Source: a virus. Taken from it: a stretch of DNA of 64,000 bases. Numbering within the stretch: position 1 is the first letter of the stretch; each line of letters begins with the position of its first letter. This document shows positions 25,617 to 42,927 of this stretch, piece after piece. The notes under the pieces are model-generated. The model had not been told where the DNA came from, made no database searches, and was given only the letters and a program-made list of their open reading frames with translations. A program made the translations under genes and the position numbers. The DNA lies in IMG/VR virus record IMGVR_UViG_3300034031_000046, positions 1 to 64,000 of that record; one strand, written 5' to 3'.

Positions 25617-26249
25617 ATGTACCTGATTGGACTCACCGGAACCGCTCGTCACGGCAAAGACACCGTTTACACCATCCTCGTGGAGATCTTCCTGCGCTAC
25701 ACACAGGCGAAAGGTTTGCCTCCCGCCGATATTCCACCTGCTACCTTTATTCGGCGCTATGCCATCGCCGACCGGCTCAAGATGGAAGTGGCCGCCGCGT
25801 GGGGCGTCACCCTCGAAGAAATCAACGCCAATAAAGATTTCTGGCGTCCCCTGCTTCAGGCGTGGGGTAACACCAAGCGTGTGACGCATGGCGAAAACTG
25901 CTGGCTGGACCAGGTCGAGCATCAAATTGAGAAGGACCGGCCCCAGATCGCCATTATCACCGACGTGAGTTACCCCAACGAATTCGCGTGGTGCCGCGTG
26001 AAGTACGCTGGCGTGGTCTGGCGCGTCTTGCGCCCCGGCGTCCCCGCGCCCAACAACCACGCCACTGAGCACGGGCGGGCCAACGAACCGGTCGAGTACA
26101 CGATTGTCAACGACGGAACCATCAACGATCTCCGCATCGCCGTGGCGGTCGCTCTGGATGAATGGACCAATCGTTATCACGACATTCCGCCTGCCAATGG
26201 TGCAAGGACTGAAGCCGCAGCCTCTTCCGCAGGCGCGCCCTCCGCATGA
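25617..26249 (+). CDS. deoxynucleoside monophosphate kinase-like P-loop protein
   Basis: MYLIGLTGTARHGKDTV P-loop at the extreme N-terminus, as in phage dNMP kinases. GAGGA RBS. Confidence 0.6.
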   Translation: MYLIGLTGTARHGKDTVYTILVEIFLRYTQAKGLPPADIPPATFIRRYAIADRLKMEVAAAWGVTLEEINANKDFWRPLLQAWGNTKRVTHGENCWLDQVEHQIEKDRPQIAIITDVSYPNEFAWCRVKYAGVVWRVLRPGVPAPNNHATEHGRANEPVEYTIVNDGTINDLRIAVAVALDEWTNRYHDIPPANGARTEAAASSAGAPSA

Positions 26250-27271
26250 ACTCTTCGAGATCGTCCGATAATTCCCTGACTGTCCGCTTCATTCCTGAAG
26301 ACGGGGCCGGTGTCGATGATCTTGTCGCCATCGTGCAGGCGGCTCTTGCCGTCCCCGAGGTCGCGCAGCACTTTTCTCTCAGCGGCTACGGGACAGTGAA
26401 CTCGCTTCTGGAAAAGGCGATTGTGATCGACGCGGAAGGAGAAGCCCGCGCACTGGAGCAAGCGACGGCGGGCATTGAAGAAATCACCGCGCGCTTGATG
26501 GAACTCAAGGACGGGTGGCAGGCGACGTGTGAACTTCACGCGGCAGCGACGCGCGCCGCCGGTCCGGCATGGGCGAACCCGCGCCTTGAGAAAGCACGGC
26601 GCGTTTTCGAACGGCAGGCGCGCAGTGTGATACGCACCTCGCTGCGCCAGATGTGGATGCGCGGGAGGGAGGCGGGAGGGGCCACGGGGCCGCTACGCCA
26701 CGATGAAGAGGTGCAGCTTCAACGCCTCTATCGCGAGGAGCAACAGTATTTTCTTAACCTCCTTGTGGATGTCGAGCAAGGCACGGGGCGCATGGACAAA
26801 GACCGCCGCGTCGCCATGTATGGCCGCGCTTCGCTCGAAGCCTACTGGGCCGGTTTTGTTCTCGCCCAACTGGCCCCCGGTCGCTACGTGCAGTGGATAA
26901 AAAACGACGTGGAATCGTGCGGCGACTGCATCCTGCTCGCGCGCGGTGGCCGCTGGGGAAACGGAATTTACACGGCGCGGGAACTGGCGCGGGCGGGGCT
27001 CTTCCCGCGTTCGGGGAAGCTGCAGTGCTGCACCAATTGCGAATGTGAACTGCGGGCCGTGCCGCGTCCAACCGGGCCACCGGTGCGCGGCCATGTGCTG
27101 CTGAGCGATCTGCCGCTGAAAGGCGTGTCCTCTTCATCCTTCACCGGTCAGGGGCGCAGCGGTCGGCAGGCGCTGGAGAAACGCGCGGCAAAGTATGGTC
27201 GATGGACCCACCAGGGCCGGACGGTGAAACGAGGCAATCCGCTCTGGCGTGCCGGGAGGAAAAAGGTATGA
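26246..27271 (+). CDS. MuF / SPP1 gp7-like head morphogenesis protein (putative)
   Basis: C-terminal WIKNDVESCGDCILLARGG..LFPRSGKLQCCTNCECEL resembles the D-x-x-x-C-x-x-C...P-x-H/x-x-C-x-C end of MuF domains. Divergent. Confidence 0.45.
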   Translation: MNSSRSSDNSLTVRFIPEDGAGVDDLVAIVQAALAVPEVAQHFSLSGYGTVNSLLEKAIVIDAEGEARALEQATAGIEEITARLMELKDGWQATCELHAAATRAAGPAWANPRLEKARRVFERQARSVIRTSLRQMWMRGREAGGATGPLRHDEEVQLQRLYREEQQYFLNLLVDVEQGTGRMDKDRRVAMYGRASLEAYWAGFVLAQLAPGRYVQWIKNDVESCGDCILLARGGRWGNGIYTARELARAGLFPRSGKLQCCTNCECELRAVPRPTGPPVRGHVLLSDLPLKGVSSSSFTGQGRSGRQALEKRAAKYGRWTHQGRTVKRGNPLWRAGRKKV

Positions 27272-27732
27272 GCGTGGCAATCGTAGTTCGGGAAGACCAG
27301 CAGCATCTGATATTTGCGGAGCAAACCTGCATCGTGCCTCTGGAGTGTCAGGCGATCTTCGTGCGCTTGCCCTCCGGCGTCGCTCCCGAGACTCTGGCGG
27401 AGTGTCATGAAAAAATGAACGCGCACCGGCGACGCAACGGCATTACAGCGAATGTGATCTTCCTCGCCAGTGATGAGCCGGTCGAAGCCTACTCCGAGCG
27501 CGAGATGAACGACCATGGCTGGTATCGCCATAATGCCGCGTGTGAAGCGCCTGCGAGTGAAGGGGCTGTGAACGAGGCCGTTCTCAGTGCCGGACCTGTG
27601 GCCGAATTGTGCAGGCCGTTTGCTCCCCCACTCTGGTGGAAACTCCGCGCTGCCGGACTGGTGATTGTCCTTTACCATCTCGCGGTTTTTCTGTGGTCGC
27701 GCTTTGGGCTGCATATCGCGTTCCCTCTCTAA
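27268..27732 (+). CDS. hypothetical protein with C-terminal TM helix
   Basis: ATGA coupling to the MuF-like gene. C-terminal LRAAGLVIVLYHLAVFLW. Confidence 0.5.
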   Translation: MSVAIVVREDQQHLIFAEQTCIVPLECQAIFVRLPSGVAPETLAECHEKMNAHRRRNGITANVIFLASDEPVEAYSEREMNDHGWYRHNAACEAPASEGAVNEAVLSAGPVAELCRPFAPPLWWKLRAAGLVIVLYHLAVFLWSRFGLHIAFPL

Positions 27733-27742
27733 GTACGGTCGA
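27732..27742 (-). repeat. TCGACCGTACT half-site (reverse orientation)
   Basis: AGTACGGTCGA on the plus strand, intergenic, upstream of the 1055-aa gene. Confidence 0.9.
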
Positions 27743-27834
27743 ACTCCCCCGTCTCCTCCCACCGCTGCCTTTTAACAACGACGACAGAGCGATGCACACT
27801 CCGCACGCATTTTCGCATCAACGGTGCCTTTAAC

Positions 27835-30800
27835 ATGACCGCAACGCCATTTACCCAGACCCGGCAGAACCGTTCCCGACAGGGGCGTCCCCACCCCACT
27901 CTCCTGATTGTCAGCGCTCCCGCCGCCATTCCCGCCGTCACGGCTCCCCAGCTTGTGCACTGCGGTGCACACGAGGAAGAGTTACTCAAAGCGCATCCGG
28001 GTTCGGTCGCGGTTGTCAAGACGCGCCGCGACGGCCACCGCCAGCGCTACTGGACCAAGCCCGACGGCCATTTCTGGATTACGCCAAAAGGGGAATCCGT
28101 CCGCCTCAAGGGCACGCACGCGGGTTTCCTGTCGCGCCGTCGCGATCTGCTCAAGCGGTTCGTGCCCGAATATGATGGCGGTCAGGTCGAGGACCATCAC
28201 ATCACGAAGTTCGCGCAGCGGACGGGATGGGTGCGCGCGCGCCACTGGAATATGGCCGGCCACAACTGGCACTCCTATTCGCTTCCTAACGAGCGGCCTG
28301 ACACCTTCGAAGCCGCGCAGCGCCATCACGAGGAGCGCTACGGCAAGGACGGAGATCCGCCGCTCGTCACCGTTGAACTCGATAACGACGCCATCGACTT
28401 GCACCCCGACGCCGGTCAAAGCTGGCATCGTTCCTATCGCCAGATGAAGCGGCTTCACGGCATGGGCATGGAATGGGGACAGCCGCTCTTTAAAGCGACG
28501 GCGTTGCATCCCAAAAGCGATTACGTGCCCGGAGAGGATTGTCCGCACTGCGGCGCTTCGATGGAACAGGGCGGACAGGCCGATTACGATAAAACACAGA
28601 TGCCGTTGTGTAACTCCTGCGGCAAGGAGTGGCCGGACCCGACATGGTCATCCCCGAGTCTGTCGGGGGATGGTGGTCAGGGATGGCACTGCCCATGGTG
28701 CTCGGAGGTCAACTGCTCCGAAACACCGGAGACGAACCGCTCCTGCTACAAGTGCAAGAAAACCGTCGATGTCATTGACGAGGGCGACAGCCCCTCCGGA
28801 AAGGAGATCTGGCATGTTCATCCGGCACGCCAGCACGCGGGGAAAGACGGCGAAGATATCGCTAAGGCGTTCGCCTCGGGTTATCCGCTTCAGGGGCGGC
28901 GCATGTTTCGTGGGCTACATGTCTCCATTGAGAACCGCAAGGGCCGCTATCGCGTGGACAAGCAGCACGACCCACCGCAGTGGAAAAGCCTGATGTATTG
29001 TGATTACGGATACGTGCGCGGCTCCGAAGGTGTCGATGGCGACCACATCGACGTGTTTGTCGGTCCCAACGAAAACGCGCCGGACGTTTACATCGTGCGC
29101 CAGGTCAACCCGTCAACGGGAAAATTCGATGAGCAAAAGTGCATGCTCGGTTTCGACTCGGCGGAGCAGGCGAAGGCGATGTATCTCAAGCATTACGACA
29201 CGCCGAAATTCTTCGGCGGCATCACCGCGATGCCGTTTGACGAGTTCAAAGCCAAATCGCTCGCCAGTCTGCACGGCGAGAAGTTGCTCAAGGCCGTCGC
29301 GCTACGCGCCCTCTCCCCTGCTCCGTCCACCGCGACAAAGAAGAAAAACAAGGCTGCTGCGCCGGGGGCGAAGCCTACCGCTCCCCGCCAGATCGCCGTC
29401 GTGATTCCGTCGGTGAAACCGGCTGCCGCCAAAGGTGCGACCAAAGGTGCCCTCACCGGCGCCCGCCGCGTCGGTGGCGTTGGGCCATCGCACAAGGGCA
29501 GCAAGTGGATTACCGTGCACGATGCCGTTGAAGTCCATGTACCGCGCAAGGGCCGTCAATCTGGGGCCGTTGTTTCAGCCACTAAAAATCACGTCTGGGT
29601 TTTCACACGTCACGGCACGTTCGAAGCGCCGCGCGCCGAAGTCACGCCACTCAAGCGCAAAGTCACCTTTGACTGGCGCAAGGCATCGCAGGTGATACCG
29701 CACCCCGGAAGTGTCGTCACCGTCCGTCCCCTGCCCGAGTCGCTGCCCGCAGGAATGAAACAGGCGCAAAGCGTGAAGCGCGTTCTGGCCGAACCCATCA
29801 AAAACAAGGGCGCCAACGCGAGCGTGAAAGTGCTCGAAGTTCGTCCCGGTCGCAACGACATGAAAACGCACACGGTGAAGCGGTCGCAAATCGCGGGACC
29901 GTACTTGCCGGACAAGTTCATCGACCCGGTCGAGAAGACGCGCACACGTCGCCGCCCCGACGCCGTCAAGACGAAGTCACAGTTGAAGTCCGAAGCGTCG
30001 AACCTCACCTACGTGAAATATCTCGATGCGCGCGGCCAGAAGAACCTGAGCGAGCGGGAAAACAAATGGTTCGCCAAGCACGAACAGCGCATCGAGGGCG
30101 TAGCACGCGGCATCGCGGCGCGCATGATGATCACCGGAGAAAACGTGCAAGACCTGATTTCCCACGCCAACGTCGGTGCGCTCTACGCCTACCGTCAGTG
30201 GGACCGGGACCGCGCGGCGCAACGGGGCATGAAGCTCTCCAACATGGCCCGCCACGCCGCGATTGAGGCCGGTCTGGATCTCGATTCCGAGGAAGGCAAG
30301 GCGTTCGTCAAAGTCGAAGCCCATCGCCTGTCGAAAACGATGTCGGCGACCGCTCTCCGCGACAAACACATCTTCGCGGGTGCATGGATGGAAACGATGC
30401 GGCGCGCGGACGAGGTCATGGATATCACCGGTCTTTCCGGTATCAACCGCAGCGATATCGGGCGCGTGGTGCGCGCGGAACGCGACCTGTCCGCAGAACT
30501 GGGACGCCGTCCCCTGCCCCGCGATATCGCGAACCGTCTGGGTTGGACGAGTGCAGGCGGTGAAGAAAAGGTACGCCTCTGCCTCGCCAAGAAAATCGCG
30601 CGCGCTGCGTCGCGGATGTCGGAACTGGAACGTGAAACCGAAGGCGGCACCGTATCACCGCAGGACACACTCGCAGCGAAACCCGAGGTCGATGCAGCAT
30701 CCAGCGAACGCGCGGAACAAACGCGCGCAGCGGTGATGCAATTGGGCCGTCTCGCCGGACTCGACGAACGCCAGACGCTGATTTTGCGCGAGGGCCTGAG

Positions 30801-31002
30801 CCGCGATATCGCCAACCGTCCCAAAGCCAGCGGTGCCGCGCTTGCGATCGCGCAGCAACTGCGCAAGGAATTCGGCGGTAAGGATTCCGAAGGCTCAGTG
30901 ATTCAGGAGTGGACCGCGATTCAGCAGCACCTTTCCTCCTACGTGCAGGGCAACCGCTTTACGGCGGAAAAGGTCTTGGGCCAGAAGCTCGTCGGCACCT
31001 GA
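27835..31002 (+). CDS. giant multidomain protein: zinc ribbons + inorganic-pyrophosphatase-like domain + C-terminal sigma-70-like domain
   Basis: CPHC..CNSC and WHCPWC..CYKC ribbons. YCDYGYVRGSEGVDGDHIDVFVG resembles PPase YPxNYGFIP..DGDPxDVLV. VQDLISHANVGALYAYRQWD (sigma region 2-like), LSAELGRRPLPRDIANRLGW (region 3-like) and LDERQTLILREGLS (region 4-like). Confidence 0.6.
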   Translation: MTATPFTQTRQNRSRQGRPHPTLLIVSAPAAIPAVTAPQLVHCGAHEEELLKAHPGSVAVVKTRRDGHRQRYWTKPDGHFWITPKGESVRLKGTHAGFLSRRRDLLKRFVPEYDGGQVEDHHITKFAQRTGWVRARHWNMAGHNWHSYSLPNERPDTFEAAQRHHEERYGKDGDPPLVTVELDNDAIDLHPDAGQSWHRSYRQMKRLHGMGMEWGQPLFKATALHPKSDYVPGEDCPHCGASMEQGGQADYDKTQMPLCNSCGKEWPDPTWSSPSLSGDGGQGWHCPWCSEVNCSETPETNRSCYKCKKTVDVIDEGDSPSGKEIWHVHPARQHAGKDGEDIAKAFASGYPLQGRRMFRGLHVSIENRKGRYRVDKQHDPPQWKSLMYCDYGYVRGSEGVDGDHIDVFVGPNENAPDVYIVRQVNPSTGKFDEQKCMLGFDSAEQAKAMYLKHYDTPKFFGGITAMPFDEFKAKSLASLHGEKLLKAVALRALSPAPSTATKKKNKAAAPGAKPTAPRQIAVVIPSVKPAAAKGATKGALTGARRVGGVGPSHKGSKWITVHDAVEVHVPRKGRQSGAVVSATKNHVWVFTRHGTFEAPRAEVTPLKRKVTFDWRKASQVIPHPGSVVTVRPLPESLPAGMKQAQSVKRVLAEPIKNKGANASVKVLEVRPGRNDMKTHTVKRSQIAGPYLPDKFIDPVEKTRTRRRPDAVKTKSQLKSEASNLTYVKYLDARGQKNLSERENKWFAKHEQRIEGVARGIAARMMITGENVQDLISHANVGALYAYRQWDRDRAAQRGMKLSNMARHAAIEAGLDLDSEEGKAFVKVEAHRLSKTMSATALRDKHIFAGAWMETMRRADEVMDITGLSGINRSDIGRVVRAERDLSAELGRRPLPRDIANRLGWTSAGGEEKVRLCLAKKIARAASRMSELERETEGGTVSPQDTLAAKPEVDAASSERAEQTRAAVMQLGRLAGLDERQTLILREGLSRDIANRPKASGAALAIAQQLRKEFGGKDSEGSVIQEWTAIQQHLSSYVQGNRFTAEKVLGQKLVGT
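27955..27970. promoter_or_regulatory. GTGCACTGCGGTGCAC 16-mer
   Basis: Exact copy, 120 nt inside the 1055-aa ORF. Confidence 0.7.
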
Positions 31003-31061
31003 TCTCCCACCGTGTTCTCCCTCCCACCGCTTTTTTATTTGAGGTATTTTTGAGGTTTTCT

Positions 31062-34000
31062 GTGGCACATAAAAACAATCGCACCCGCTCTGCTTCGGCC
31101 CCTTCGTCGCCTGCGACTTCTTCGTCAGACCCTTCGCCGAAACGCTACACCGCACAGGTCGGCGATGCCCGCGTCCCCGTTGCGGTCTGTCATAAAACGG
31201 GAGCCGTGCACCGGCTCGTACCGCGCTCGTGCGACTGCGGGCGGGTGCATCTTCTCAAGGGCAGCATTCACAGCCAGCGCGGCCCCGTCGTGGACGGCGA
31301 GCGCGACTTCTCGATCTGTGATGAATGCGGAAAAATCCACCCACACGGCAACGACGAAGTCACCCTGCAAAAGTCGTTCGACTGGCTGCAGCAGGCGTAT
31401 TTCGCAGGCGATGCGCGGCGCGATGCGCAGGAGTCTCCGGCACAGAAAACCGTGCTCTTGGTCAAGGCGTCGCCGCATGTGATTCCGACTCCCAAGAACT
31501 CGGAGGGTCGTGTTGATTTCGGCGCTGTGGCAACGGGCAAAACGATCTGGATTACCATCACCAAGGAAGGCCCGCTGCGGGGCCGTCGCGTGATGATCAC
31601 CAAGCGCCCTGATGGATTGTTTGCCATCACCGGCGGCGCCAAGGCAGCGCGCGATCGCGGTTATTTTCACGCCGCTCTGGAATTCGGGAAGCAACGCGAA
31701 CTCACCGACGAAGAAAAAGCGTCGCGCGAAAAGTTCCGCGTCAAGGAAGAGGAGAAAAAGCAGCAGCGCCAGGCGTTCTTCAAGGAACACGGCGGAGATC
31801 TCAACAAGCTCAAAACTGCGCAGAAAGATGTGCGCGCCAAAATCTGGCAGTCGATGGGAATCGACTCCGATGAGGAAGCCAGCGAAAAGCTGCGGTCATA
31901 CCGCGCCAAGGCGCGCGACCTGTTGGTTAAGGCCGGATACGAAAAAGACGACGCGGCCAAGATTTCCGATGAGATGGCGAACTCGGAAAAGGCGCGTCTC
32001 AAGTTCGTGCGCGAGCGGGCGCTGAAAGAAGCGATGAAACGCGCCTATGAAGCCGAACGCTCGAAGGCCGCCCAACTGGCGAATCAGCCCGCAGCAGAGC
32101 CACCCAAAGCCAAGGAAGACAAGGGCAGCGCCGAAGACGACGCCCCAGCGGGTGATACTGCCAGGGAGAATGCTGGTGATGCGGCACAAACCGAGGAAAC
32201 GCCAGCAGTTGAAGAAACCCCGCTTCTCTCCGAAGAGCAACGGCAGGAACTGCATGGTCTGGACGCGGACACGCTCACACCCGAAGACATTCCGGCCCCT
32301 GACGCGGGTAAGACCCTGACCGATGAGCAGCGTCAGAAAATCTCCGAGGGAATCAAAGCCCGCCATGAGGAAAAGCGCCGTCTTGCCGCCGAGGAAGCCG
32401 CCGCCGAAGCGCAACGCGCACGCGAAGCCGAGGACCAGAAACGCATGGCCGGGAGCGACTCCAAGGACATGCTCCGCTGGATTGGTGAGCACCGCCATTT
32501 GCAGGAAACCGAGCGCAAGCTGCGCGCGAAACAGGAAAAGGCCATCGGTCCCGAATTCTCGGGCACCATCGCTGCGCTCAATTTCCGCCAGACGGGCACC
32601 GATATCATCGGCGAAGACGAGGCAGTGCAGAAGGCGATGAGCACCATCGAGGACCAGATCGAGGAGGAAAAACGCGGCGACTTTTACGCGCGCCTCGCCG
32701 AAATGGCCCGCAATCCCGAGACGGGTGACCACGACCCGCACAACCCGTTCGGCCATCTGGCCGCGCACTATGAAGCGGGCGGTATCAAAACCCTCAATCG
32801 TATTGCCACCGAGTTCTTGGGCGCGGACATTTTGCGCGGCGAGCTCGTCAAGGGACTGGGATTGCAGGCAGCGACCGAAGTCGTCGTCGAACGCCTCAAG
32901 CGTGAGGGTGCTGACCTTGAGCACGTTCGCGAGTGGGTGCGCCAGCAGGAAGGCCGCGAGATGGACACGCTGGAGCGGGCACTCGAACGCGACGAAACGT
33001 TGCAAACGGAACACACCGAACTGCAGAAGCAGGCGGGCGAAGAGTACGGTAAGGGCACGCGTCTCCACGACGCGGTCAAAGCGCTGTATGAGGCTGATAA
33101 CCTTGCACGCCAGCATGAAAACATGGGAGAGGCTCTGGGAGGACTGGAAGCCATCGGTTCGTTTGCTCTCGCTCTCGATTCGAAACCGGGCGGCGTGATC
33201 GAACTCAGCGTGGGCGAAGACCTTTCCGGCTTCCGCCAGCGCGTGTCCCGGACCGTGAGTGCCGGTGTCGCCAAGCGTATCGTCGGCAAAACCAAGCGTG
33301 ATGGGACGCGTGTCGCCCAGGTGCGCATTGCCGATCTGCGCAACTTCGTTGACCGGATGGGAGCCGTCAACACGACTCAGGTAGCGCTCGCGAAAATCGC
33401 TTCTGGCAAAGAAAATACGGCGGACTTTGTGGTCCCCGGCATCAAGATCGGAGAGGGCCATGACTTCGGCACTTTTCGTCCCGGTCAGCAATCCGACGTG
33501 CGTCATGTGATGAAGCAGTTGGAGGTTCTTGAAAAAGAAAAGAATCTTTCCAACGCCGAGAAATCGCTGCGCACGGCGGGGCTTTTCATCAACCGCGAAG
33601 TCGGCGGTGGCAAGTCACTCATCTCCCTCGCGGTCGCGCAGCAGATGCTCAATCAGAACAAGGACAACAACCGTCCGGTGATTTTCACCTGTCCCGAGAA
33701 ACTTCTCGCCAACTGGCACGGACAGGTGAAACAGTGGTGCGAGGACCCGTCGGCGATGGTTTTCGGCCAGCATCCGGGTGGAAAGCTCTCTGCCGATGAT
33801 GCAGGCGAAGACGGCCAGGCTGCACAATACCTTCAAAACAAGGATGGCCTGCAAAAAATGGTCAACCAGATTCTCTCCGGCAAAGCGCCGCGCCGTCTGG
33901 TAATCGGGCAGAAAGCACTCAACGCCAAGGTCCGCGTCAAGATGCCGGGAATGACCAAGTCTGAAGAAATGACCGTCGCACAGGCGCTCAATTACACCAA

Positions 34001-37275: not shown

Positions 37276-38659
37276 AGGTGGACGCCTGACTCGCCCGAAC
37301 TTTCCTATGGACCCCTTTTCCTCTCTTCAACTCGCGTTCCAAAAATCGCTGCAGAACCAGTTTCTCGCGAGCGGTCTGATGTTGATGCTGGGCGGTAGCC
37401 TGCTGGCGTTATGCCGCACGGTGCCCGCCCACATTTTTCGCTGGCTCAAGAGCCAGTTCATCGTTTCGGTTGATGTGCTCAGCCCCGACCCTGTTTATGA
37501 CTGGTTGTCGATCTGGCTTGATCAGCACCCGTACAGCAACCGGGCACGTGCCCTCACGGCGACAGCGCGGCGCCATTACCGCCCGATTTCGCAGACGCCG
37601 GACAATTGTGCTGAGCCTTCGCTGCCAGAGATCCTCTTCACTCCCGCTCCCGGTAATCATTTCTTCGTGTATCACGGGCATCTGGCGTGGCTGAGCCGGG
37701 AACGCAAAGAGCCGACCGCCGACAACCCGCTGGTGATGATGCCGCGCGAAACATTCATGATTCGCATCGTGGGACGCCGCCAGTCGCTCGTGCGTGATTT
37801 GTTAGAGGACGTGCGCCTCTGCGCTCATTCGGCGATGAAGGAGCATCGCAACGTCTTTGTGACCGGAGACGGCTACTGGCGTTCTACCGGCATACGCCTT
37901 CAGCGGTCGCTGGACTCGGTGATTCTTCCCGAAGGCGTCGCGGAGGATGCTCTGGCCTCGGTGCGCGAGTTTCTGCAAAGCGCGCCCTGGTATCAGAAAG
38001 TCGGTGTCCCATGGCGCTGCGGCTGGCTTCTCGAAGGGCTTCCCGGCTCGGGTAAAACCAGTCTTATTGGTGCCATCGCCAGTGAACTGAATCTCGATCT
38101 CTATTGCCTTAGTCTCGTTTCGTCTGGCATGAACGACAGTCGTCTGGCCGATATGATTGCGAACATGAATCCCGGCAGCATCCTGCTGATGGAGGATATC
38201 GATGCGGCGACACAAGGCCGCACGATGACCCTCGTCGAGGAAGAGGGGCAGGCAGTGTCGGGCGTCACGTTCTCGGGCCTGCTCAATGCCATTGATGGCA
38301 TCGCCGCGAAGGAAGGCACGCTGCTCTTCATGACGACCAACCATGCGGAACGGCTCGACCCCGCACTGATTCGTCCGGGCCGTATTGACCATCGCATTCA
38401 CTTCTCTCACGCCACGCCGGAACAGGTGGGCCGTATGCTCTGCCGCTTTTATCCCGATTCCGATACGACCTACCGCTTGCGGTTCATGGCCGCTCTCGAA
38501 GCCACTCAGTCCAGTGCAGAGCCATTGTGGCCCCTTAGTACTGCGACTCTCCAGCAACACCTGCTGCGCTTCAAGACGGACCCGGAAGGCGCATTACTCA
38601 ATCTCGAAAGCCGGTTGCAGCGCGGCCCACGCAGAGCACTTCACGCTGTTTTCGGATAG
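37268..38659 (+). CDS. BCS1-like AAA+ ATPase with N-terminal TM helix
   Basis: N-terminal FLASGLMLMLGGSLLAL. WLLEGLPGSGKTS (Walker A), ILLMEDIDAA (Walker B), FSGLLNAIDG and LFMTTNHAERLDPALIRPGRID (SRH/Arg finger). Alternative start at 37306. Confidence 0.85.
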   Translation: MPKGGRLTRPNFPMDPFSSLQLAFQKSLQNQFLASGLMLMLGGSLLALCRTVPAHIFRWLKSQFIVSVDVLSPDPVYDWLSIWLDQHPYSNRARALTATARRHYRPISQTPDNCAEPSLPEILFTPAPGNHFFVYHGHLAWLSRERKEPTADNPLVMMPRETFMIRIVGRRQSLVRDLLEDVRLCAHSAMKEHRNVFVTGDGYWRSTGIRLQRSLDSVILPEGVAEDALASVREFLQSAPWYQKVGVPWRCGWLLEGLPGSGKTSLIGAIASELNLDLYCLSLVSSGMNDSRLADMIANMNPGSILLMEDIDAATQGRTMTLVEEEGQAVSGVTFSGLLNAIDGIAAKEGTLLFMTTNHAERLDPALIRPGRIDHRIHFSHATPEQVGRMLCRFYPDSDTTYRLRFMAALEATQSSAEPLWPLSTATLQQHLLRFKTDPEGALLNLESRLQRGPRRALHAVFG

Positions 38660-38757
38660 CCTCCATCGGATAACCTCCGTGTCACAGGCCCTCACTCAAT
38701 AAGTCCCTCCCCTCCAGCAATCTGCACCAGCAATCTGCATTCGATGAGGCAAGCCGC

Positions 38758-41700
38758 GTGAATTCTCTTTCCGACCGTACTCTCACTCTTTCCCCAGAGG
38801 AACGTTACCTTCAGTCCCTGTTCGCGAGTTCCGCGTCAGCAACTTCAACGTCCCCTACACCGCTCAATCACACGGAACAGTCGGTCTTGAAGGCGCTCTC
38901 TCTCCAGACTTTCCCGTCCGCCGCACCCGTAGCACCGCGCCGCGTGCGTCGCAAGAATCGGAGCGCATCGCAGCTTGTCGTCCTGCAGAAAAGCTGGTCG
39001 ATGGACCTGCACGCCGAGTGCACGCGCAAATTTGGCGGCGATTGTCACTGGGTGACGCTGCACGGCAATCACGGCGGCGGGTCGGCTCATGTGCTGCTGT
39101 CGCCACCACAGGGCAAGGAAAAGCACCGGCGCGTGGTCTGGGCACCAGAGGGCACTGGCCTCGAACATTTGCGCATGGAAGGGTTGGGGAGCAATGACGA
39201 CATTCGTACGCGCGCCAAAGCCAAAGCCAAGCAGCGCGCGGTCGTGAAAAAGACGCTGTCCAAAGACGAGGTTGAGGGCGAGCGCAACCTTGTCAACTGG
39301 AGCCGCGACAAGATGCAGAAACTGCACGGCGAAGTTCACAACGTGCTCAAGGAAGAGCTCGGAGACGAGTTCGGTGAAACGGAACTCTCGGAAAGCACGC
39401 GCGCGATCGCGCGCCGTGCACAGGAAGTTTTGCGCGAGTCCGGCCAGAAGGTCCCGACCGGCTCCGATGGTAAAGTCGCCCGCCCCGATATCGATAGCGG
39501 GGAAGGCACGGAGCCGTCCGCAGGAGAGGAAGCAGAGGACGCGGGCTTCTCTTCGCGTTCGGTGCGCGAAGCGGTCGCCAATCATGCCGCTTCGATTCTC
39601 GCCAGCGAGATCACGGGCGCCCCGCCAATGCGCAGCAAGAAAGTCGATGCCCTGCCCGAACCTCTCCAGCGCAAGATTCAGGAAATGACACCCGAATCAG
39701 CACAGCGAATTCTCCAGCAGATGGCGCGCACCAGCGAGTTCCAGAAGAACGCGAAAAAGGTTTTGCAGGGCCGGATGAGCCGCACTGAGGCCGAAGCCTC
39801 TATCGTGTCTTCGGTTTCACCCGATACGGTCGAAACCGAAATCAAGAAGCGCGTCGCCGATGCGGAACGTGTGCGATATAACAGCGCGCTCTGGCAGCAG
39901 GTTGGTTCGGCGTATGCTGACGGCGCGCGCCATGTGGGCGATGCGTTTACACGCGGCGGAACCGAAGCGATTTCCTCGCTCGTTTCCAAGTCTCTCGGGT
40001 CCGGTGTTTCGCCCGGTGTCGTGGGCAGTCTGGGTCTTTCAGGCATTGCTCACGTTCTCGCGCACGAGCTCGCGCGCACCGGCGGCTATGACGATGTGCG
40101 TTCGGTGCAGGACCTCACCGATTACATCGAGATGGAAGCCGACACGCTCCGGGACGAAGACGGTCCGCTGTCGGAAGTAAACGAACTGCGGGACCAGATG
40201 CAGTTCAATGAAAGCCTGCGCGATACCGATCTCAATGAACGCACCGTCGCCAGCCTCAACGCACGGCTGTCCGCACAGGCGCAGAAAATTCTGGGCAACG
40301 TGGCCGGACGGCTCGAAGCGGGTGCCGAGATGGCAAAAGCTCTCCGCACCGTGCCGCACAGCGCCAACGGAGATCTTACCCTGACCAACGGCATCAACTC
40401 GTCGCTCATCGTCGCCCAGATGGAAGCTGCGGGCCTTTCGCCGGATGATTACACCATCACCGAGCAAAGAGACGATAAGGGCGAGCACCTGGCTGTGACG
40501 ATCAAGGCGGATTCCTTTCCCAAAATCCTGCGCCAGTCGAAGCGCGATGAGGAAAACGAAGAGATTCGTTCGGGGAGTACGGTCAAAGAATACAAGCACC
40601 CTGCCGGATGGACCGACGATCCGAAGCTGCAACTCAAGCCGCAGCAAATCCAGCACGTCCAGTTCTGGCAGAAGAACCGGCGCACCCTCGCCGACGCTTC
40701 CACCGGTTTTGGCAAGACACCCGTCGCTCTAGCGTGCGCGCTCCATCTCAAGGAAGAGATGGCGGCGGAGGGCCGCAAACCGCGTGTGCTTGTGCTCACG
40801 ACCGCCGGTGTGCGTGACCAGTACGGCGAGGAGTGTGCCAAGTTCGCGCCCGGCCTCGAAGGCGATTATCGCGTGGCGGGCGGCACCGGGGAAGAAAACG
40901 CGGCAGCCATCAAGGGCGACCAGACACTCACCATCTGCGCCCACGACGCGCTCGTGCACAACGCCGACGAAATTCTCCAGCAAAACTGGGACGCGATTAT
41001 CGTGGATGAGGCCGACAAGCTGATCTCACCGGCAGCGGGCGAACCCTCGATTCGTGAAGGCGTGTTCAATGCGCTTTCTTCCGCCGCGCCGGACATGCTG
41101 TGCGCGACGGCGACACCGTTGCGTAACTCGGTTCAAGAGTACTGGAAGATGCTGCACCTGCTGCGCCCGACGCGTTTTCCGCGCTACGCGGACTTTGAAG
41201 CGCAATATGAAAATCTGGGAGCGGGCACGCGCGCTTACGACGCCGCAATTTCGGAGGCACTCAACAACGAAACGCGTGACACCGTCCTGTCTTCCCGCAT
41301 GGGCGAGGGTACCAAGCACGAGCACTTCGAATCGGTTGTGCCGGTGATGGACAACGACCAGTGGCGCGAAATGCACGCGGAGATCGAGCGGCAGTTCGGC
41401 GAGGACCGCGCCCACTCCGACCCGGAAATCGCCAGCAAGGCCGCGTCACGGCGTGATGTCGAGCACATGAAGGTTTCTTACGACATCAGCGAAGATAACC
41501 CGGTGCAGACCCATGCTCGCTCGATTGCCGACAAGGCATTTCAGAGCGGAGAACGCGGCATCGTCTTCGCTGACTACATGCCGATTCTCGACACCTTCCG
41601 CAACGCCTATAAGCCCGGCGAATGGATGGAGTATTCGGGACGCGTGGATACGCAGAGCGGACGGCGCGAGGAACTCAAACACGCGCTCAATCATGGCGCT

Positions 41701-42198
41701 CTGATTCGTGGCGTGCGCGTCGCCCTTGGCCATCAGGGCAAAGGTGCCGAGGGCGTTATCGACCAAGTCCACCGTGCGCCTGTGTCCGCCGAGGACCGGC
41801 GCGCGGGCAAACAGGGCGAGATCACCGGCTACACGGTTCAACTCGATGATGGCAGCGGCGAAGGAAAGTACGTGACGGTTCCGGCGGATGCGAACATGAA
41901 GAGCCTGCTGCGTGGCCTTGTCGCCACACGCGCCGCGCAGTATGGACTCAACCTTCAGGAAGGCGGGCGGTACGTGATGCGCATGGGGCATCCCTACACG
42001 CCTACGGCCTATGAGCAGGAAGTCGGTCGATTGCGCAGCCGCGAGCAAAGTGCGGCGGGACGCCCCACCTGGGACCACACTCTTAGCAGCGACCACCCTG
42101 TTGCCGGCGTCCGGCGGCGCAACATCTTCAACCGCAAGGCGCAGTTGACACGCGGGCGCGAGCACTATCTGCGCAGCGATGAATATGGAGTGGGGTAA
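38758..42198 (+). CDS. giant SNF2/DEAD-type helicase
   Basis: ASTGFGKTPVA (motif I), AIIVDEADKL (DEAD), CATATPLRNSVQEYWKMLHLL (SNF2 motif III) and later YEQEVGRLRS. The GTG start is uncertain because a motif copy lies at 38772. Confidence 0.8.
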   Translation: MNSLSDRTLTLSPEERYLQSLFASSASATSTSPTPLNHTEQSVLKALSLQTFPSAAPVAPRRVRRKNRSASQLVVLQKSWSMDLHAECTRKFGGDCHWVTLHGNHGGGSAHVLLSPPQGKEKHRRVVWAPEGTGLEHLRMEGLGSNDDIRTRAKAKAKQRAVVKKTLSKDEVEGERNLVNWSRDKMQKLHGEVHNVLKEELGDEFGETELSESTRAIARRAQEVLRESGQKVPTGSDGKVARPDIDSGEGTEPSAGEEAEDAGFSSRSVREAVANHAASILASEITGAPPMRSKKVDALPEPLQRKIQEMTPESAQRILQQMARTSEFQKNAKKVLQGRMSRTEAEASIVSSVSPDTVETEIKKRVADAERVRYNSALWQQVGSAYADGARHVGDAFTRGGTEAISSLVSKSLGSGVSPGVVGSLGLSGIAHVLAHELARTGGYDDVRSVQDLTDYIEMEADTLRDEDGPLSEVNELRDQMQFNESLRDTDLNERTVASLNARLSAQAQKILGNVAGRLEAGAEMAKALRTVPHSANGDLTLTNGINSSLIVAQMEAAGLSPDDYTITEQRDDKGEHLAVTIKADSFPKILRQSKRDEENEEIRSGSTVKEYKHPAGWTDDPKLQLKPQQIQHVQFWQKNRRTLADASTGFGKTPVALACALHLKEEMAAEGRKPRVLVLTTAGVRDQYGEECAKFAPGLEGDYRVAGGTGEENAAAIKGDQTLTICAHDALVHNADEILQQNWDAIIVDEADKLISPAAGEPSIREGVFNALSSAAPDMLCATATPLRNSVQEYWKMLHLLRPTRFPRYADFEAQYENLGAGTRAYDAAISEALNNETRDTVLSSRMGEGTKHEHFESVVPVMDNDQWREMHAEIERQFGEDRAHSDPEIASKAASRRDVEHMKVSYDISEDNPVQTHARSIADKAFQSGERGIVFADYMPILDTFRNAYKPGEWMEYSGRVDTQSGRREELKHALNHGALIRGVRVALGHQGKGAEGVIDQVHRAPVSAEDRRAGKQGEITGYTVQLDDGSGEGKYVTVPADANMKSLLRGLVATRAAQYGLNLQEGGRYVMRMGHPYTPTAYEQEVGRLRSREQSAAGRPTWDHTLSSDHPVAGVRRRNIFNRKAQLTRGREHYLRSDEYGVG

Positions 42199-42203
42199 GA
42201 ACT

Positions 42204-42665
42204 ATGAAAAACAGTAAAGAAAATTCGTCCACGAAACCCAAGGCATCGCTGGCAAAAGCCGAACGCACAGCGCGTACCGCAGCAAACAGTGTGTATGCAC
42301 TCATGGCCGAATTACGCGACCATGACGAGGCTTCCATCGCGCGTTTGCAGGAACAGCGCGACCATGTTGCCAAGCTGCACGACGACGCGCGCCCGCAAGT
42401 TGAGCGTCTAATGAAGCGTGCGACACGGACCAAGCGACGCTCTGACGTGCAGAAATATGGCACACTGGCGCAGCGTCAACGTCACCGGCGCGAGCAATAT
42501 CATCACACGAATGAACTGATCTCCGAAATCAAAAGCGGGGGGAGTTTTCAGGCAACGGCCCAACGCGGAAAAACCCGAAGCAAGAGCGGGGGGCAGAAAA
42601 CCAAAACGAATCATGGGGAATCCGACAAGGGCGAGAAACGGGGGACGGCGAAACCAGCCTCTTGA
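42204..42665 (+). CDS. hypothetical basic protein
   Basis: 153 aa, Lys/Arg-rich and helical. Confidence 0.55.
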   Translation: MKNSKENSSTKPKASLAKAERTARTAANSVYALMAELRDHDEASIARLQEQRDHVAKLHDDARPQVERLMKRATRTKRRSDVQKYGTLAQRQRHRREQYHHTNELISEIKSGGSFQATAQRGKTRSKSGGQKTKTNHGESDKGEKRGTAKPAS

Positions 42666-42927
42666 ACTGGTAGTCACCGGACCTAAAGCCGCGCCGACAC
42701 CTACCGTCAAATCTCCGGTAAAGCCGGTCATACCATGGGGAGAGGCGTGTCTCACATCCGCAGGAAAATGTCCGCACTGTGCGGCAAAGGTGCGCCTGCA
42801 TAGAGACGGGAGCGACGCCGGGCGCAGCAAGATCAATTCGAGGTGCGTGCTCGTTGACGACCGCTCAGGTCGTGTCTTCGCCAAGTGTCCCGGCTGTCGG
42901 CGCATGGTGGCTCTCACCGCCAGTTAA
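42613..42927 (+). CDS. hypothetical zinc-ribbon protein (doubtful start)
   Basis: CPHC..31..CPGC. Overlaps the upstream gene by 53 nt. No SD. Confidence 0.35.
   Translation: MGNPTRARNGGRRNQPLELVVTGPKAAPTPTVKSPVKPVIPWGEACLTSAGKCPHCAAKVRLHRDGSDAGRSKINSRCVLVDDRSGRVFAKCPGCRRMVALTAS

What the first reader, a model, noticed from the sequence alone, without database searches (positions are those of the whole stretch)
26246..42927. 16-kb arsenal of giant multidomain proteins downstream of a MuF-like gene: candidate virion-delivered takeover or anti-defence system
**Gene order, all on the plus strand.**
- MuF-like protein
- C-terminally TM-anchored protein
- 1055-aa zinc-ribbon + PPase-like + sigma-like protein
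- helicase of about 1380 aa
- VRR-NUC nuclease
- two small proteins
- membrane-anchored BCS1-like AAA+ ATPase
- 1146-aa SNF2/DEAD helicase
- two basic proteins

**Why it matters.** As I recall from Iyer, Aravind and colleagues (J Bacteriol 2017), MuF-family minor head proteins mark polyvalent effector proteins that are packaged and injected with the DNA. Their domain repertoire there includes SNF2 helicases, nucleases and a pyrophosphatase-like module.

The combination seen here adds a sigma-like domain, a VRR-NUC nuclease and a protein-translocase-type AAA+ ATPase. To my knowledge that combination is not a described system. Counting the gene at 5550, the window holds three SNF2-type helicases.

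Shared C-rich boxes precede the two largest genes: CTCCCACCGCT at 27756 and 31021, and CTCCCACCG at 31004.
Basis: partly seen in the sequence, partly recalled or inferred. Interest (0 to 1): 0.8.

Follow-up and report, generated by a model that had tools for sequence, protein, structure and literature searches.

The report
Phage head-module giant effector-like proteins
Next to the portal and a MuF-like head gene, an uncultivated phage carries a conserved block of giant "polyvalent-type" proteins that are most likely packed into the capsid and injected with the DNA; the kind is known, but this domain combination is not.

Summary
The genes and the gene order are real. The window is part of a 139-kb uncultivated phage contig, and the block lies in its head module: terminase, portal, nucleotide genes, MuF-like gene, the block, then the major capsid protein further on.

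Confirmed by Pfam:
- The polyvalent-type pyrophosphatase (InPase, E 2e-40).
- Both SNF2 motors.
- The BCS1-like AAA+ ATPase.

Supported only by deeper tests:
- **Sigma-like C-terminus:** sub-threshold Pfam r2/r3 hits, with sigma factors as the top hits in both a PDB profile search and a Foldseek search.
- **VRR-NUC:** through an orthologue that hits Pfam, with the catalytic residues conserved.
- **MuF-like:** no Pfam hit, but supported by fold, by position after the portal, by fusions to polyvalent domains, and by a profile link to a Thermus phage MuF protein.

The core of the block recurs at 40-53% identity in three other metagenomic phages. There the orthologues carry ART-PolyVal, PBECR2 and LPD1 domains. 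The BCS1 gene is absent at the corresponding position in the one relative that can be read there.

The C-rich boxes exist but are no more than chance would give. Packaging in the virion is inferred, not shown.

Verdict: a new variant of polyvalent, virion-delivered phage proteins. The InPase-sigma fusion is the most interesting part.

The parts
26246..27271 (+). MuF-like minor head protein (341 aa), from a divergent family outside Pfam PF04233
   Evidence: There is no Pfam or PHROG hit. The family has 183 representatives. None of 106 members scanned hits Phage_Mu_F; one is fused to ART-PolyVal and two to a 2H phosphoesterase. The AF2 model has pLDDT 89. BFVD Foldseek hits are capsid/head morphogenesis and minor capsid proteins, E 1e-4 to 5e-2. 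In L007 the homologue lies two genes after a portal homologue. hhalign against the Thermus phage Lalka27b minor head protein gives P 6.5e-4 over the W..C..C...C.C motif. That protein hits Phage_Mu_F at E 8e-6, 27.0 bits, below the 29.6-bit cutoff.
27268..27732 (+). 154-aa protein with a C-terminal transmembrane helix
   Evidence: It is called in the public annotation. There is a hydrophobic segment at aa 126-148 and no family hit.
27835..31002 (+). 1055-aa polyvalent-type protein: N-terminal domain, two zinc ribbons, InPase, a middle region and a sigma-70-like C-terminus
   Evidence: The InPase, zinc-ribbon and sigma evidence is given under the sub-feature rows for this gene. Other points:
- The identical protein is on a 139,401-bp contig.
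- The N-terminal domain (aa 49-277) is 35% identical to part of L014's 704-aa protein, which also has sub-threshold matches to ART-PolyVal and PBECR2.
- The orthologue P0081 is 44-45% identical.
28540..28755 (+). Two zinc ribbons inside the 1055-aa protein (CPHC, CNSC, CPWC, CYKC)
   Evidence: The motifs are read directly from the sequence. There are weak zinc-ribbon Pfam hits.
28891..29253 (+). InPase domain (polyvalent-protein type of family I pyrophosphatase)
   Evidence: PF18823 matches at E 2.3e-40 and 138 bits over aa 353-473. The acidic motif DGDHIDVFV is retained. PHROG hits include minor head, virion structural and DarB-like families. The PDB hit is Pa193 portal gp19, residues 638-731, E 4.7e-19.
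29980..30999 (+). Sigma-70-family-like module (regions 2, 3, an acidic linker and 4)
   Evidence: Pfam gives Sigma70_r3 at E 6e-5 and Sigma70_r2 at E 2e-3, both below the cutoffs. In the PDB profile search the top four hits are SigA/RpoD, best E 0.0047. The AF2 model has pLDDT 72. Of the top 14 Foldseek PDB hits, 13 are sigma factors; sigma-28 (1rp3) has probability 1.00.
31062..35204 (+). 1380-aa protein: zinc ribbon, charged coiled-coil region, helical pre-helicase domain and SNF2-like ATPase (about 33573-34979)
   Evidence: Pfam gives SNF2-rel_dom at 27.4 bits and Helicase_C at 25.2 bits, both just above the cutoffs. Orthologues are 53% identical in L013 and about 40% in L015/L016. It is weakly paralogous to the 1146-aa protein, E 3e-8 over 558 aa. 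There is no tblastn hit in 50,697 phage records. It is weakly related to the Lalka Lvh helicase, including the pre-helicase region.
35246..36199 (+). 317-aa VRR-NUC-type nuclease with an N-terminal zinc ribbon and an inserted one (core about 35615-35893)
   Evidence: The protein itself has no Pfam hit. The syntenic orthologue L013:7457-8020 hits VRR_NUC at E 6e-8 and 33.1 bits, above the 23.8-bit cutoff. That orthologue matches this protein at 33% identity, E 2e-16. E126, D181, E203, K205 and Q216 are conserved in the alignment.
36440..36796 (+). Doubtful 118-aa ORF inside a 600-nt gap with no called gene
   Evidence: It was not called in the public annotation and has no homologue or family hit. 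The gap holds a sigma-70-like TTGACA-18-CACAAT site at 36228-36257.
36799..37275 (+). 158-aa basic helical (coiled-coil-like) protein, a conserved partner of the two helicases
   Evidence: Homologues follow the 1380-aa orthologue in L013, L015 and L016. The pI is 10.2.
37307..38659 (+). BCS1-like AAA+ ATPase with an N-terminal membrane anchor
   Evidence: Pfam gives BCS1_N at E 1.2e-29, AAA at 6.7e-20 and AAA_lid_BCS1 at 3.4e-12. phrog_7485 matches at E 1.5e-79. The TM helix is at aa 31-50 of the longer ORF that starts at 37268. Homologues in jumbo phages are 30-36% identical. The gene is absent at this position in L013.
38758..42198 (+). 1146-aa protein: pre-helicase region and SNF2 ATPase (about 40627-42036). 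The exact start codon is uncertain.
   Evidence: Pfam gives SNF2-rel_dom at E 1.3e-15, DEAD at 1.1e-9 and ResIII at 4.4e-8. The best PDB hits are RapA at E 1.2e-7. It is 45% identical to the C-terminal 800 aa of L013's 1847-aa protein, which carries LPD1 upstream.
42204..42927 (+). Two small basic ORFs: 153 aa, and 104 aa with two CxxC motifs
   Evidence: The ORFs are present, with pI 10.5 and 10.6. There are only sub-threshold Pfam hits. Conservation was not assessed.
27756..27766 (+). C-rich box CTCCCACCGCT, first copy
   Evidence: The match is exact. It is not significant and not conserved in L013.
31021..31031 (+). C-rich box CTCCCACCGCT, second copy (CTCCCACCG also at 31004)
   Evidence: The match is exact. 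It is not significant.

Best explanation
What it is. The block is a conserved set of polyvalent-type cargo proteins encoded inside the head-morphogenesis module of a large uncultivated tailed phage.

Proposed mechanism (inferred):
1. The proteins are made together with the portal and the MuF-like minor head protein.
2. They are incorporated into the procapsid.
3. They are ejected into the host with the DNA.

Proposed roles inside the cell (inferred):
- The 1055-aa protein supplies a sigma-70-like module that engages host core RNA polymerase at time zero. Its fused InPase removes pyrophosphate or a nucleotide signal to favour first transcription.
- The two paralogous SNF2 translocases, the VRR-NUC nuclease and the small helical (coiled-coil-like) partner act on DNA. 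They could clear or protect the incoming genome, or attack host DNA.
- The membrane-anchored BCS1-like AAA+ ATPase is a lineage-specific addition. It may handle folded cargo at a membrane-proximal assembly site.

Shown: the domain identities, the position in the head module, and conservation of the core in related phages.
Inferred: packaging, injection and the individual activities.
For: Head-module position.
- Terminase is at 18321-19841, the portal at 20571-22958 and the major capsid protein at 58234-59766.
- All genes from the terminase to 42927 are on one strand. A strong hairpin follows at 43054-43081.

Marker domain.
- InPase PF18823 matches at E 2e-40.
- Its PHROG relatives are minor head, virion structural and DarB-like proteins.
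- In the protein database it is usually fused to Phage_Mu_F, ART-PolyVal, ddrB-ParB, LPD or SNF2 domains.
- It forms the C-terminus of the Pa193 portal protein, E 4.7e-19 (PMC11042391).

Conserved core in related phages.
- L013/L014 carry, in order: a 704-aa protein with the shared N-terminal domain plus sub-threshold ART-PolyVal and PBECR2 matches; an InPase-sigma-like protein (44% identity); the 1380-aa orthologue (53%); VRR_NUC; the p158 homologue; and an LPD1-SNF2 protein (45%).
- L015/L016 keep the helicase, the p158 homologue and the second helicase.
- Domains are shuffled between neighbouring genes in these relatives, which I read as typical of polyvalent proteins.

MuF-like protein: fold, synteny, fusions and a profile link to a MuF protein.

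Sigma-like module.

Link between InPase and transcription elsewhere: P0067 fuses InPase to RNA polymerase beta and beta-prime domains.

Experimental analogue.
- Thermus phage Lalka27a packages a 1715-aa SNF2-type helicase (Lvh) that is encoded among structural genes.
- The portal of the related phage Lalka27b is a distant homologue of the portal here.
- Lvh is the top hit in the Lalka27b genome for both helicase families here, E 3e-5 and 1.5e-8 among 477 ORFs, including the pre-helicase region.

Replication helicase: a separate, ordinary 554-aa SNF2 helicase at 5550 is available for replication or repair.
Against: - There are no virion data for this phage.
- The sigma, MuF and VRR-NUC assignments of the window proteins are all below Pfam thresholds. 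They rest on two-sequence profiles, a model with pLDDT 72 and weak Foldseek E-values (8e-3 and worse).
- No processing peptidase or known capsid-targeting signal was found in the window. A shared W[IV]T motif failed an HMM test.
- The InPase-sigma fusion was found in only two lineages. The sigma-like region has no detectable relatives among the 78 other InPase proteins retrieved.
- BCS1 is not conserved at this position, and in jumbo phages it is not next to head genes.
- Nucleotide-metabolism genes sit between the portal and the MuF-like gene, so the 'head module' is not purely structural.
- The phage also has a regular stand-alone sigma factor at 47513-48127. A second sigma is therefore not needed for transcription as such.
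Confidence: 0.5

Rival explanations
1. The proteins are packaged cargo, but their main job is defence evasion in the manner of the phage P1 Dar system. The SNF2 motors, the nuclease and the partner protein travel with the incoming DNA and block or strip restriction and other defence complexes. InPase degrades defence-related nucleotide signals. The sigma-like part acts as an RNA polymerase binder or decoy rather than as a promoter-specificity factor.
For: - The InPase region matches a DarB-like antirestriction PHROG at E 2.4e-20.
- Iyer et al. 2017 propose nucleotide-signal degradation as one possible role for InPase.
- In polyvalent proteins SNF2 ATPases are typically tied to anti-restriction.
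- The orthologous locus has sub-threshold matches to ART-PolyVal and the PBECR2 RNase domain.
- A stand-alone methyltransferase with polyvalent-type PHROG hits lies nearby at 45726-46877, and a ParB protein at 49155-50141.
Against: - None of the giant proteins has a methylase domain, whereas DarB is a methylase-helicase dyad.
- The sigma-like module keeps the colinear region 2, 3, linker and 4 layout of real sigma factors.
- Another InPase protein is fused to RNA polymerase catalytic domains, which points towards transcription.
Confidence: 0.2
2. The proteins are not packaged. They are ordinary intracellular phage enzymes that happen to be encoded near head genes: a phage sigma factor for a middle or late gene class, two SNF2 helicases with a VRR-NUC nuclease for recombination, fork processing or host DNA breakdown, and a membrane AAA+ chaperone.
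For: - As I recall, SNF2 helicase plus VRR-NUC pairs are common in phage replication and recombination modules. The closest cultured-phage hits to the 1146-aa helicase core are Gordonia phage 'DNA helicase' genes.
- RapA is the best PDB match.
- An exonuclease, a nucleotidase and a dNMP kinase lie between the portal and the MuF-like gene, so non-structural genes do occur here.
- Promoter-like boxes of one shared type precede both the portal region and the nucleotide genes.
Against: - The polyvalent-type InPase is found overwhelmingly in MuF or portal fusions and virion-annotated proteins.
- The orthologues carry polyvalent-specific domains.
- A regular 554-aa SNF2 helicase and a regular sigma factor already exist elsewhere in the window.
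- Long N-terminal extensions of 600-850 aa are unlike replication helicases.
- The nearest experimentally studied analogue, Lvh, is virion-associated.
Confidence: 0.25
3. The block is an assembly artefact or a set of decaying genes.
For: The contig is a metagenome assembly. One related locus (L016) shows a frameshift in the helicase gene.
Against: - The reading frames are intact for 1055, 1380 and 1146 codons.
- Two contigs on record carry the identical 1055-aa protein.
- The same order is found in independent assemblies from other samples at 40-53% protein identity.
Confidence: 0.02

Closest known systems
Polyvalent proteins of phages and conjugative elements (Iyer, Burroughs, Anand, de Souza, Aravind, J Bacteriol 2017; PMC5512222)
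   Same: - It has the InPase domain of the polyvalent type and SNF2 ATPases.
- It lies next to the portal and a MuF-type head gene.
- Orthologues carry ART-PolyVal, PBECR2 and LPD1.
- Domains are shuffled between adjacent genes.
   Different: - The repertoire is spread over several adjacent giant genes rather than one polypeptide.
- A text search of that paper finds no mention of a sigma-like module, a VRR-NUC nuclease or a BCS1-like ATPase.
- No zincin processing peptidase was seen in the window.
Thermus phage Lalka27a large virionic helicase, Lvh (bioRxiv 10.64898/2026.04.20.719267)
   Same: - It is a large protein with a long N-terminal region and a C-terminal SNF2-type core (Pfam on the Lalka27b copy).
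- It is encoded among structural genes.
- The portal of the related phage Lalka27b is distantly homologous, and that phage has a MuF-type minor head protein and the same exonuclease, nucleotidase and dNMP kinase trio.
- There is weak similarity that includes the pre-helicase region.
   Different: - Similarity is marginal: P about 1e-3 for the pre-helicase region.
- Lvh lies among tail and baseplate genes, not after the MuF gene.
- Lalka phages have no InPase-sigma protein and reportedly no sigma factor.
Phage P1 Dar anti-restriction system (DarB, a methylase-helicase packed in the head)
   Same: Large helicase-containing head cargo that is proposed to act on the injected DNA. The InPase region matches a 'DarB-like' PHROG.
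   Different: - No methylase domain is present in the giant proteins.
- No DarA, Hdf, Ddr or Ulx homologues were found.
- The PHROG match covers only the InPase domain.
Virion-delivered transcription takeover: phage N4 virion RNA polymerase and T4 Alt
   Same: The logic is the same: a protein carried in the capsid reprograms or supplies transcription the moment the DNA enters.
   Different: Here the candidate is a sigma-like specificity subunit fused to a pyrophosphatase. It is neither a polymerase nor an ADP-ribosyltransferase. I know of no described virion-borne sigma factor, and a literature search found none.
Pbunavirus portal proteins with a C-terminal InPase (Pa193 gp19, PDB 9b41; PMC11042391)
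   Same: The InPase domain family is the same (E 4.7e-19), and there it is physically part of a virion protein.
   Different: - There the domain is fused to the portal, and that part (residues 529-765) is not resolved in the map.
- Here it lies inside a separate 1055-aa protein.
BCS1-like AAA+ ATPases of jumbo phages (Iyer et al., Viruses 2021; PMC7824862)
   Same: The architecture is the same (BCS1_N + AAA + lid), at 30-36% identity to Caulobacter and Brevundimonas jumbo phage proteins. That paper proposed that such proteins translocate folded proteins into heads during membrane-proximal assembly.
   Different: Here the gene sits between genes for candidate head cargo. In the jumbo phages checked it lies among unrelated genes. 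It is missing at the same position in L013.

Membership tests
Polyvalent proteins (Iyer et al. 2017) | Contains domains from the polyvalent repertoire (InPase, SNF2, ART, PBECR, LPD and others) | tested here: met
   InPase PF18823 matches at E 2.3e-40, and SNF2 is present in two proteins. In the orthologues, LPD1 matches above its cutoff (E 4e-17); ART-PolyVal (E 7e-5) and PBECR2 (E 3e-4) match below theirs.
Polyvalent proteins (Iyer et al. 2017) | Several disparate domains combined in one polypeptide | tested here: met
   The 1055-aa protein combines a shared N-terminal domain, two zinc ribbons, InPase and a sigma-like module. The helicases each have one recognised catalytic module plus long uncharacterised regions.
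Polyvalent proteins (Iyer et al. 2017) | [quoted passage not shown] | tested here: met
   The terminase, portal and MuF-like genes lie upstream on the same strand, and the capsid protein gene lies downstream.
Polyvalent proteins (Iyer et al. 2017) | Delivered into the recipient cell with the DNA | not testable with these tools
   This needs virion proteomics or infection experiments.
MuF / SPP1 gp7 minor head proteins (Pfam PF04233) | Match to the Phage_Mu_F profile | tested here: not met
   There is no hit for the window protein even at E up to 10. None of 106 family members hits at E up to 1e-3.
MuF / SPP1 gp7 minor head proteins (Pfam PF04233) | MuF-like fold and C-terminal W...C..C...C.C motif | tested here: inconclusive
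   - BFVD hits are head morphogenesis and minor capsid proteins, but E is only 1e-4 to 5e-2 and TM only 0.2-0.4.
- hhalign aligns the motif with Mu gp30 (P 0.04), SPP1 gp7 (P 0.02) and the Lalka27b minor head protein (P 6.5e-4).
MuF / SPP1 gp7 minor head proteins (Pfam PF04233) | Position just downstream of the portal gene, and use as an anchor for effector domains | tested here: met
   In L007 the gene lies two genes after a portal homologue. Here it lies five genes after the portal. Family members are fused to ART-PolyVal and 2H domains.
Sigma-70 family | Regions 2, 3 and 4 recognised by family profiles | tested here: inconclusive
   Region 3 gives E 6e-5 (23.5 bits, cutoff 25.3) and region 2 gives E 2e-3 (18.4 bits, cutoff 24). 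Region 4 is not detected by Pfam. In the PDB profile search the top four hits are all SigA/RpoD, best E 0.0047.
Sigma-70 family | Sigma fold with the domain order sigma2, sigma3, linker, sigma4 | tested here: inconclusive
   The model has pLDDT 72. Of the top 14 Foldseek PDB hits, 13 are sigma factors, and full-length sigma-28 aligns with probability 1.00. However, E is 8e-3 or worse and TM scores are low.
Sigma-70 family | Binds core RNA polymerase and directs promoter recognition | not testable with these tools
   This needs biochemistry or a complex prediction.
VRR-NUC nucleases (Pfam PF08774) | Match to the VRR_NUC profile | tested here: not met
   The window protein has no hit. Its syntenic orthologue does hit, at E 6e-8 and 33.1 bits against a cutoff of 23.8.
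VRR-NUC nucleases (Pfam PF08774) | Catalytic E...D...ExK residues | tested here: met
   E126, D181, E203 and K205, and also Q216, are conserved with the orthologue that hits Pfam.
BCS1-like AAA+ ATPases | BCS1_N domain, AAA module, BCS1 lid and N-terminal membrane anchor | tested here: met
   All three Pfam domains are above their cutoffs at 104, 72.3 and 46.5 bits. There is one hydrophobic helix near the N-terminus.
SNF2 (SWI2/SNF2) ATPases | SNF2-related N-lobe and Helicase_C lobe | tested here: met
   - 1146-aa protein: SNF2-rel_dom 57.8 bits, but Helicase_C only 17.7 bits.
- 1380-aa protein: SNF2-rel_dom 27.4 bits and Helicase_C 25.2 bits, both just above the cutoffs.
P1 Dar system | DarB-type adenine methylase fused or coupled to the helicase, with DarA, Hdf, Ddr and Ulx partners | tested here: not met
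   The giant proteins have no methylase domain, and the scans showed no Dar partners. The 'DarB-like' PHROG match covers only the InPase domain.

The most novel reading that the evidence does not exclude
This phage lineage injects its own sigma-like specificity subunit, fused to a pyrophosphatase, from the capsid. Host core RNA polymerase would then be redirected to phage DNA before any phage gene is expressed. A conserved pair of giant SNF2 motors with a VRR-NUC nuclease would travel with it. In this phage a membrane-anchored BCS1-like translocase would load these folded giants into the prohead. To my knowledge this would be the first virion-borne sigma factor, and the first genomic link between phage BCS1 and head cargo.
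Probability: 0.2. Interest if true: 0.8.

Novelty: new variant of a known kind. Interest (0 to 1): 0.55.

Why it matters
Some phages carry proteins in the capsid that act before any phage gene is read: N4 RNA polymerase, T4 Alt, P1 DarB. Polyvalent proteins extend this idea widely but remain almost untested.

A capsid-borne sigma-like factor fused to a pyrophosphatase would be a new way to seize host transcription at time zero. It would also give a concrete function to the widespread InPase domain.

The conserved helicase, nuclease, partner, helicase core defines a testable multi-protein unit. The BCS1-like gene embedded in it offers a handle on how very large folded proteins get into proheads. 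That question was raised for jumbo phages and has not been answered.

Tried and rejected
- **C-rich boxes as a shared regulatory element.** The copies are exact but not significant. They are not enriched and not conserved in L013.
- **A W[IV]T motif seen by eye in all three giants as a shared targeting signal.** An HMM built from the 1380-aa family segment finds nothing else in the six-frame translation of the window.
- **The sigma-like region as a common partner of InPase.** A two-sequence HMM finds no significant match in the 78 other InPase proteins. A profile of five InPase proteins that also carry an S-adenosylmethionine lyase domain hits only the Pa193 portal in the PDB.
- **Close relatives.**
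  - There is no megablast hit in the phage collection.
  - tblastn finds nothing for the MuF-like and 1380-aa proteins.
  - IMG/VR scans found relatives of the InPase domain only.
  - GTDB genome scans found none, so no prophage copy and no host clue.
- **Foldseek of the MuF-like model against the PDB.** Only generic helical bundles came back.
- **BCS1 neighbourhoods in Brevundimonas and Caulobacter jumbo phages.** They contain no head or polyvalent genes.
- **Rfam scan of 25000-44000.** No family was found.
- **The AAA ATPase in the Lalka27b head module.** It is PrkA, not BCS1.

Full report
**Setting**

The window has about 58% G+C and no tRNA genes. The 1055-aa protein is identical to one on a 139,401-bp ENA metagenome contig, whose gene calls match my ORFs.

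PHROG and Pfam scans give this layout:
- Large terminase: 18321-19841.
- Portal: 20571-22958.
- Metallophosphoesterase exonuclease: 23343-24821.
- NT5C nucleotidase: 24989-25594.
- dNMP kinase: 25617-26249.
- The flagged block.
- A convergent minus-strand block at 43456-55491. It holds two PAPS-reductase-like proteins, a methyltransferase, a regular sigma factor, a ParB protein and others.
- Plus-strand genes again, including the major capsid protein at 58234-59766.

The block therefore lies inside the head module of a large tailed phage. Nothing in 50,697 phage records is close at the DNA level. The portal has only 24-26% identical relatives: Morganella, Bordetella, Thermus Lalka and SPO1-like phages.

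**The observation**

The exception is the 118-aa ORF at 36440-36796. It is uncalled, has no homologue and lies in a 600-nt gap.

Pfam confirms the following:
- InPase (PF18823): E 2.3e-40, aa 353-473 of the 1055-aa protein.
- The BCS1_N/AAA/lid architecture of the ATPase.
- SNF2 cores in the 1146-aa protein (strong) and the 1380-aa protein (just above the cutoffs).
- An SNF2 core in the gene at 5550.

Two zinc ribbons, the C-terminal helix of the 154-aa protein, the N-terminal anchor of the ATPase and the basic character of the last two ORFs can be read from the sequence.

The C-rich boxes are at the stated positions, but they are not evidence of anything:
- 1391 different 11-mers recur in the window.
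- C-rich tracts are as frequent as in shuffles.
- The box is missing from the orthologous intergenic region.

**The three weak assignments**

*Sigma-like.*
- Pfam regions 3 and 2 score E 6e-5 and 2e-3, in the right order but below the cutoffs.
- A profile of the window protein and its orthologue finds SigA/RpoD as the top four PDB sequences, best E 0.0047. Regions 2.2 and 3.0-3.1 align colinearly.
- The AF2 model (pLDDT 72) is all-helical, with a disordered acidic linker where region 3.2 would be. Foldseek against the PDB returns sigma factors as 13 of the top 14 hits. Whole-length sigma-28 aligns with probability 1.00, but E-values are 8e-3 or worse.
- I accept 'sigma-70-like' as likely, not proven.

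*VRR-NUC.*
- The 317-aa protein has no Pfam hit.
- Its syntenic orthologue in L013 hits VRR_NUC above the cutoff and is 33% identical to it. The E, D, ExK and Q positions are conserved.

*MuF-like.*
- Neither the protein nor any of 106 relatives hits Phage_Mu_F.
- The exhaustive search shows a family of 183 representatives with nearly invariant W217, C225, C228, C261, C265 and C267 and invariant P254.
- The confident model (pLDDT 89) matches head and capsid morphogenesis and minor capsid proteins in BFVD.
- A homologue lies two genes after a portal homologue.
- Members are fused to ART-PolyVal and 2H domains.
- The family profile aligns at P 6.5e-4 with the Lalka27b minor head protein. That protein hits Phage_Mu_F at E 8e-6, below the Pfam cutoff.
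- It behaves like MuF but is a separate sequence family.

**Conservation**

The C-terminal half of the 1055-aa protein has one relative among 5.8 billion proteins, P0081 (45% identity). The contigs that carry P0081 (L013/L014) hold these genes in order:
1. A 704-aa protein whose middle is homologous to the N-terminal domain of the window's 1055-aa protein. It also has sub-threshold matches to ART-PolyVal and PBECR2.
2. The zinc ribbon, InPase, sigma-like protein.
3. The 1380-aa orthologue (53% identity).
4. VRR_NUC.
5. A homologue of the 158-aa protein.
6. A 68-aa gene.
7. An 1847-aa protein with LPD1, followed by the orthologue of the 1146-aa protein (45% identity).

Two JGI contigs (L015, L016) keep the helicase (about 40% identity), the small partner, and the start of the second large protein. 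The two helicases are themselves distant paralogues that share a pre-helicase region.

The BCS1-like gene is absent from this position in L013. Its closest relatives lie in unrelated neighbourhoods of jumbo phages.

The conserved core is therefore InPase-sigma, helicase, nuclease, partner, helicase. The membrane protein and the AAA+ ATPase are not part of what could be shown to be conserved.

**Why packaging is the best reading**
- The polyvalent-type InPase occurs overwhelmingly in proteins fused to MuF, portal or other polyvalent domains. It matches PHROGs annotated as minor head or virion structural proteins.
- It is the unresolved C-terminal part of the Pa193 portal protein (PMC11042391).
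- Iyer et al. 2017 inferred from such contexts that these proteins are packaged and injected. They proposed that InPase either degrades nucleotide signals or clears pyrophosphate to help early transcription or replication.
- In support of the second idea, one database protein fuses InPase to RNA polymerase beta and beta-prime domains.
- An experimental analogue exists. Purified Lalka27a virions contain a 1715-aa SNF2-type helicase encoded among structural genes.
- The related phage Lalka27b shares with this phage a distantly homologous portal, a MuF-type gene and the exonuclease, nucleotidase and dNMP kinase trio.
- In the Lalka27b genome, that helicase is the best match for both helicase families here, including the pre-helicase region, though only weakly.
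- A regular 554-aa SNF2 helicase and a regular sigma factor elsewhere in the window make a purely housekeeping role for the giants less likely.

**What remains open**
- Packaging, injection, polymerase binding and all enzymatic activities are inferred.
- No processing peptidase or targeting signal was found.
- The InPase-sigma fusion is known from two lineages only.
- RapA as the best PDB match of the 1146-aa helicase fits a polymerase-associated role. It may equally reflect the few bacterial SNF2 structures available.
- The role of the BCS1-like ATPase as a cargo loader follows a published hypothesis for jumbo phages (PMC7824862). It gains only single-genome context here.

**Verdict**

The finding is real. 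Its interpretation is largely reasonable but unproven. It is a new variant of a known kind, polyvalent virion-delivered proteins. The most notable element is a sigma-like module fused to InPase. The conserved multi-gene core had not been described in the literature I could search.

Noticed in passing
window, 16 exact sites: 15(-), 28, 4048, 4435, 8394(-), 8408, 10207(-), 14471, 18073(-), 24936, 27732(-), 37125, 38772, 44910, 49134, 51735: The 10-mer CGACCGTACT is strongly over-represented. There are 24 copies with at most one mismatch against 2.9 expected, and no shuffle out of 100 reaches that number. Most copies lie at gene boundaries. Two pairs form inverted repeats (15/28 and 8394/8408). 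Two copies sit in a 35-nt repeat, GGGYTAATTTCGACCGTACTTTTCTTATGAA. The motif is absent from the related loci. It may be an operator, a promoter element or a site for the phage ParB or another DNA-binding protein.
   Followed up: partly
window 19886-19904 and 24893-24911: There are two near-identical promoter-like boxes, TG(T/C)TA(G/A)AATGAGnnCAACGCCG, which resemble an extended -10 element. One lies upstream of the gene before the portal and the other upstream of the nucleotidase gene. Each is followed by a C-rich tract. They may define one promoter class that drives the head-module genes.
   Followed up: partly
window 43456-55491, minus strand: A convergent block interrupts the head module. 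It contains:
- Two PAPS-reductase-like proteins (44923-45729 and 50558-51727).
- A methyltransferase (45726-46877) whose PHROG hits are very long polyvalent-type families.
- A compact sigma factor with regions 2 and 4 (47513-48127).
- A ParB-like protein (49155-50141).
This suggests DNA modification plus the phage's own transcription control.
   Followed up: partly
window 36200-36798: A 600-nt stretch between the nuclease gene and the 158-aa gene has no called gene. The related phage has only 53 nt here. It contains the best sigma-70-like site of the region (TTGACA-18-CACAAT, 36228-36257) and no Rfam match.
   Followed up: partly
window 43054-43081: A perfect 12-bp G+C-rich hairpin followed by a T-run on the minus strand lies where the plus-strand and minus-strand gene blocks converge. 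It is a likely terminator for the minus-strand block and possibly for both.
   Followed up: no
window 23343-26249, compared with Thermus phage Lalka27b (L021 22934-25626): The exonuclease, nucleotidase and dNMP kinase trio between the portal and the MuF-like gene is also adjacent in Lalka27b, whose portal is a distant homologue. This points to a shared ancestry for the two phage groups.
   Followed up: partly
protein P0067 (JGI, 7.6-kb contig): An 1799-aa protein fuses the polyvalent-type InPase to RNA polymerase beta and beta-prime domains (Rpb2_6 at E 2.5e-52, Rpb1_2 at E 1.6e-21). This is a direct architectural link between InPase and transcription.
   Followed up: no
proteins P0038, P0040, P0043, P0044, P0057: A group of InPase proteins also carries an S-adenosylmethionine lyase domain, an anti-restriction activity as I recall. 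JGI names one of them a 'specialized sigma subunit', but no sigma hit was seen in Pfam or in a PDB profile search.
   Followed up: partly
L013 8750-13300: In the orthologue of the 1146-aa protein, the extra N-terminal 720 aa contain LPD1 and a zincin-like HEWGH motif. This could be the processing peptidase that the window lacks.
   Followed up: no
window 38758-38781: The annotated GTG start of the 1146-aa gene is followed 14 nt later by a copy of the over-represented 10-mer. Homology with the orthologue begins only at about codon 76, so the true start codon is uncertain.
   Followed up: no
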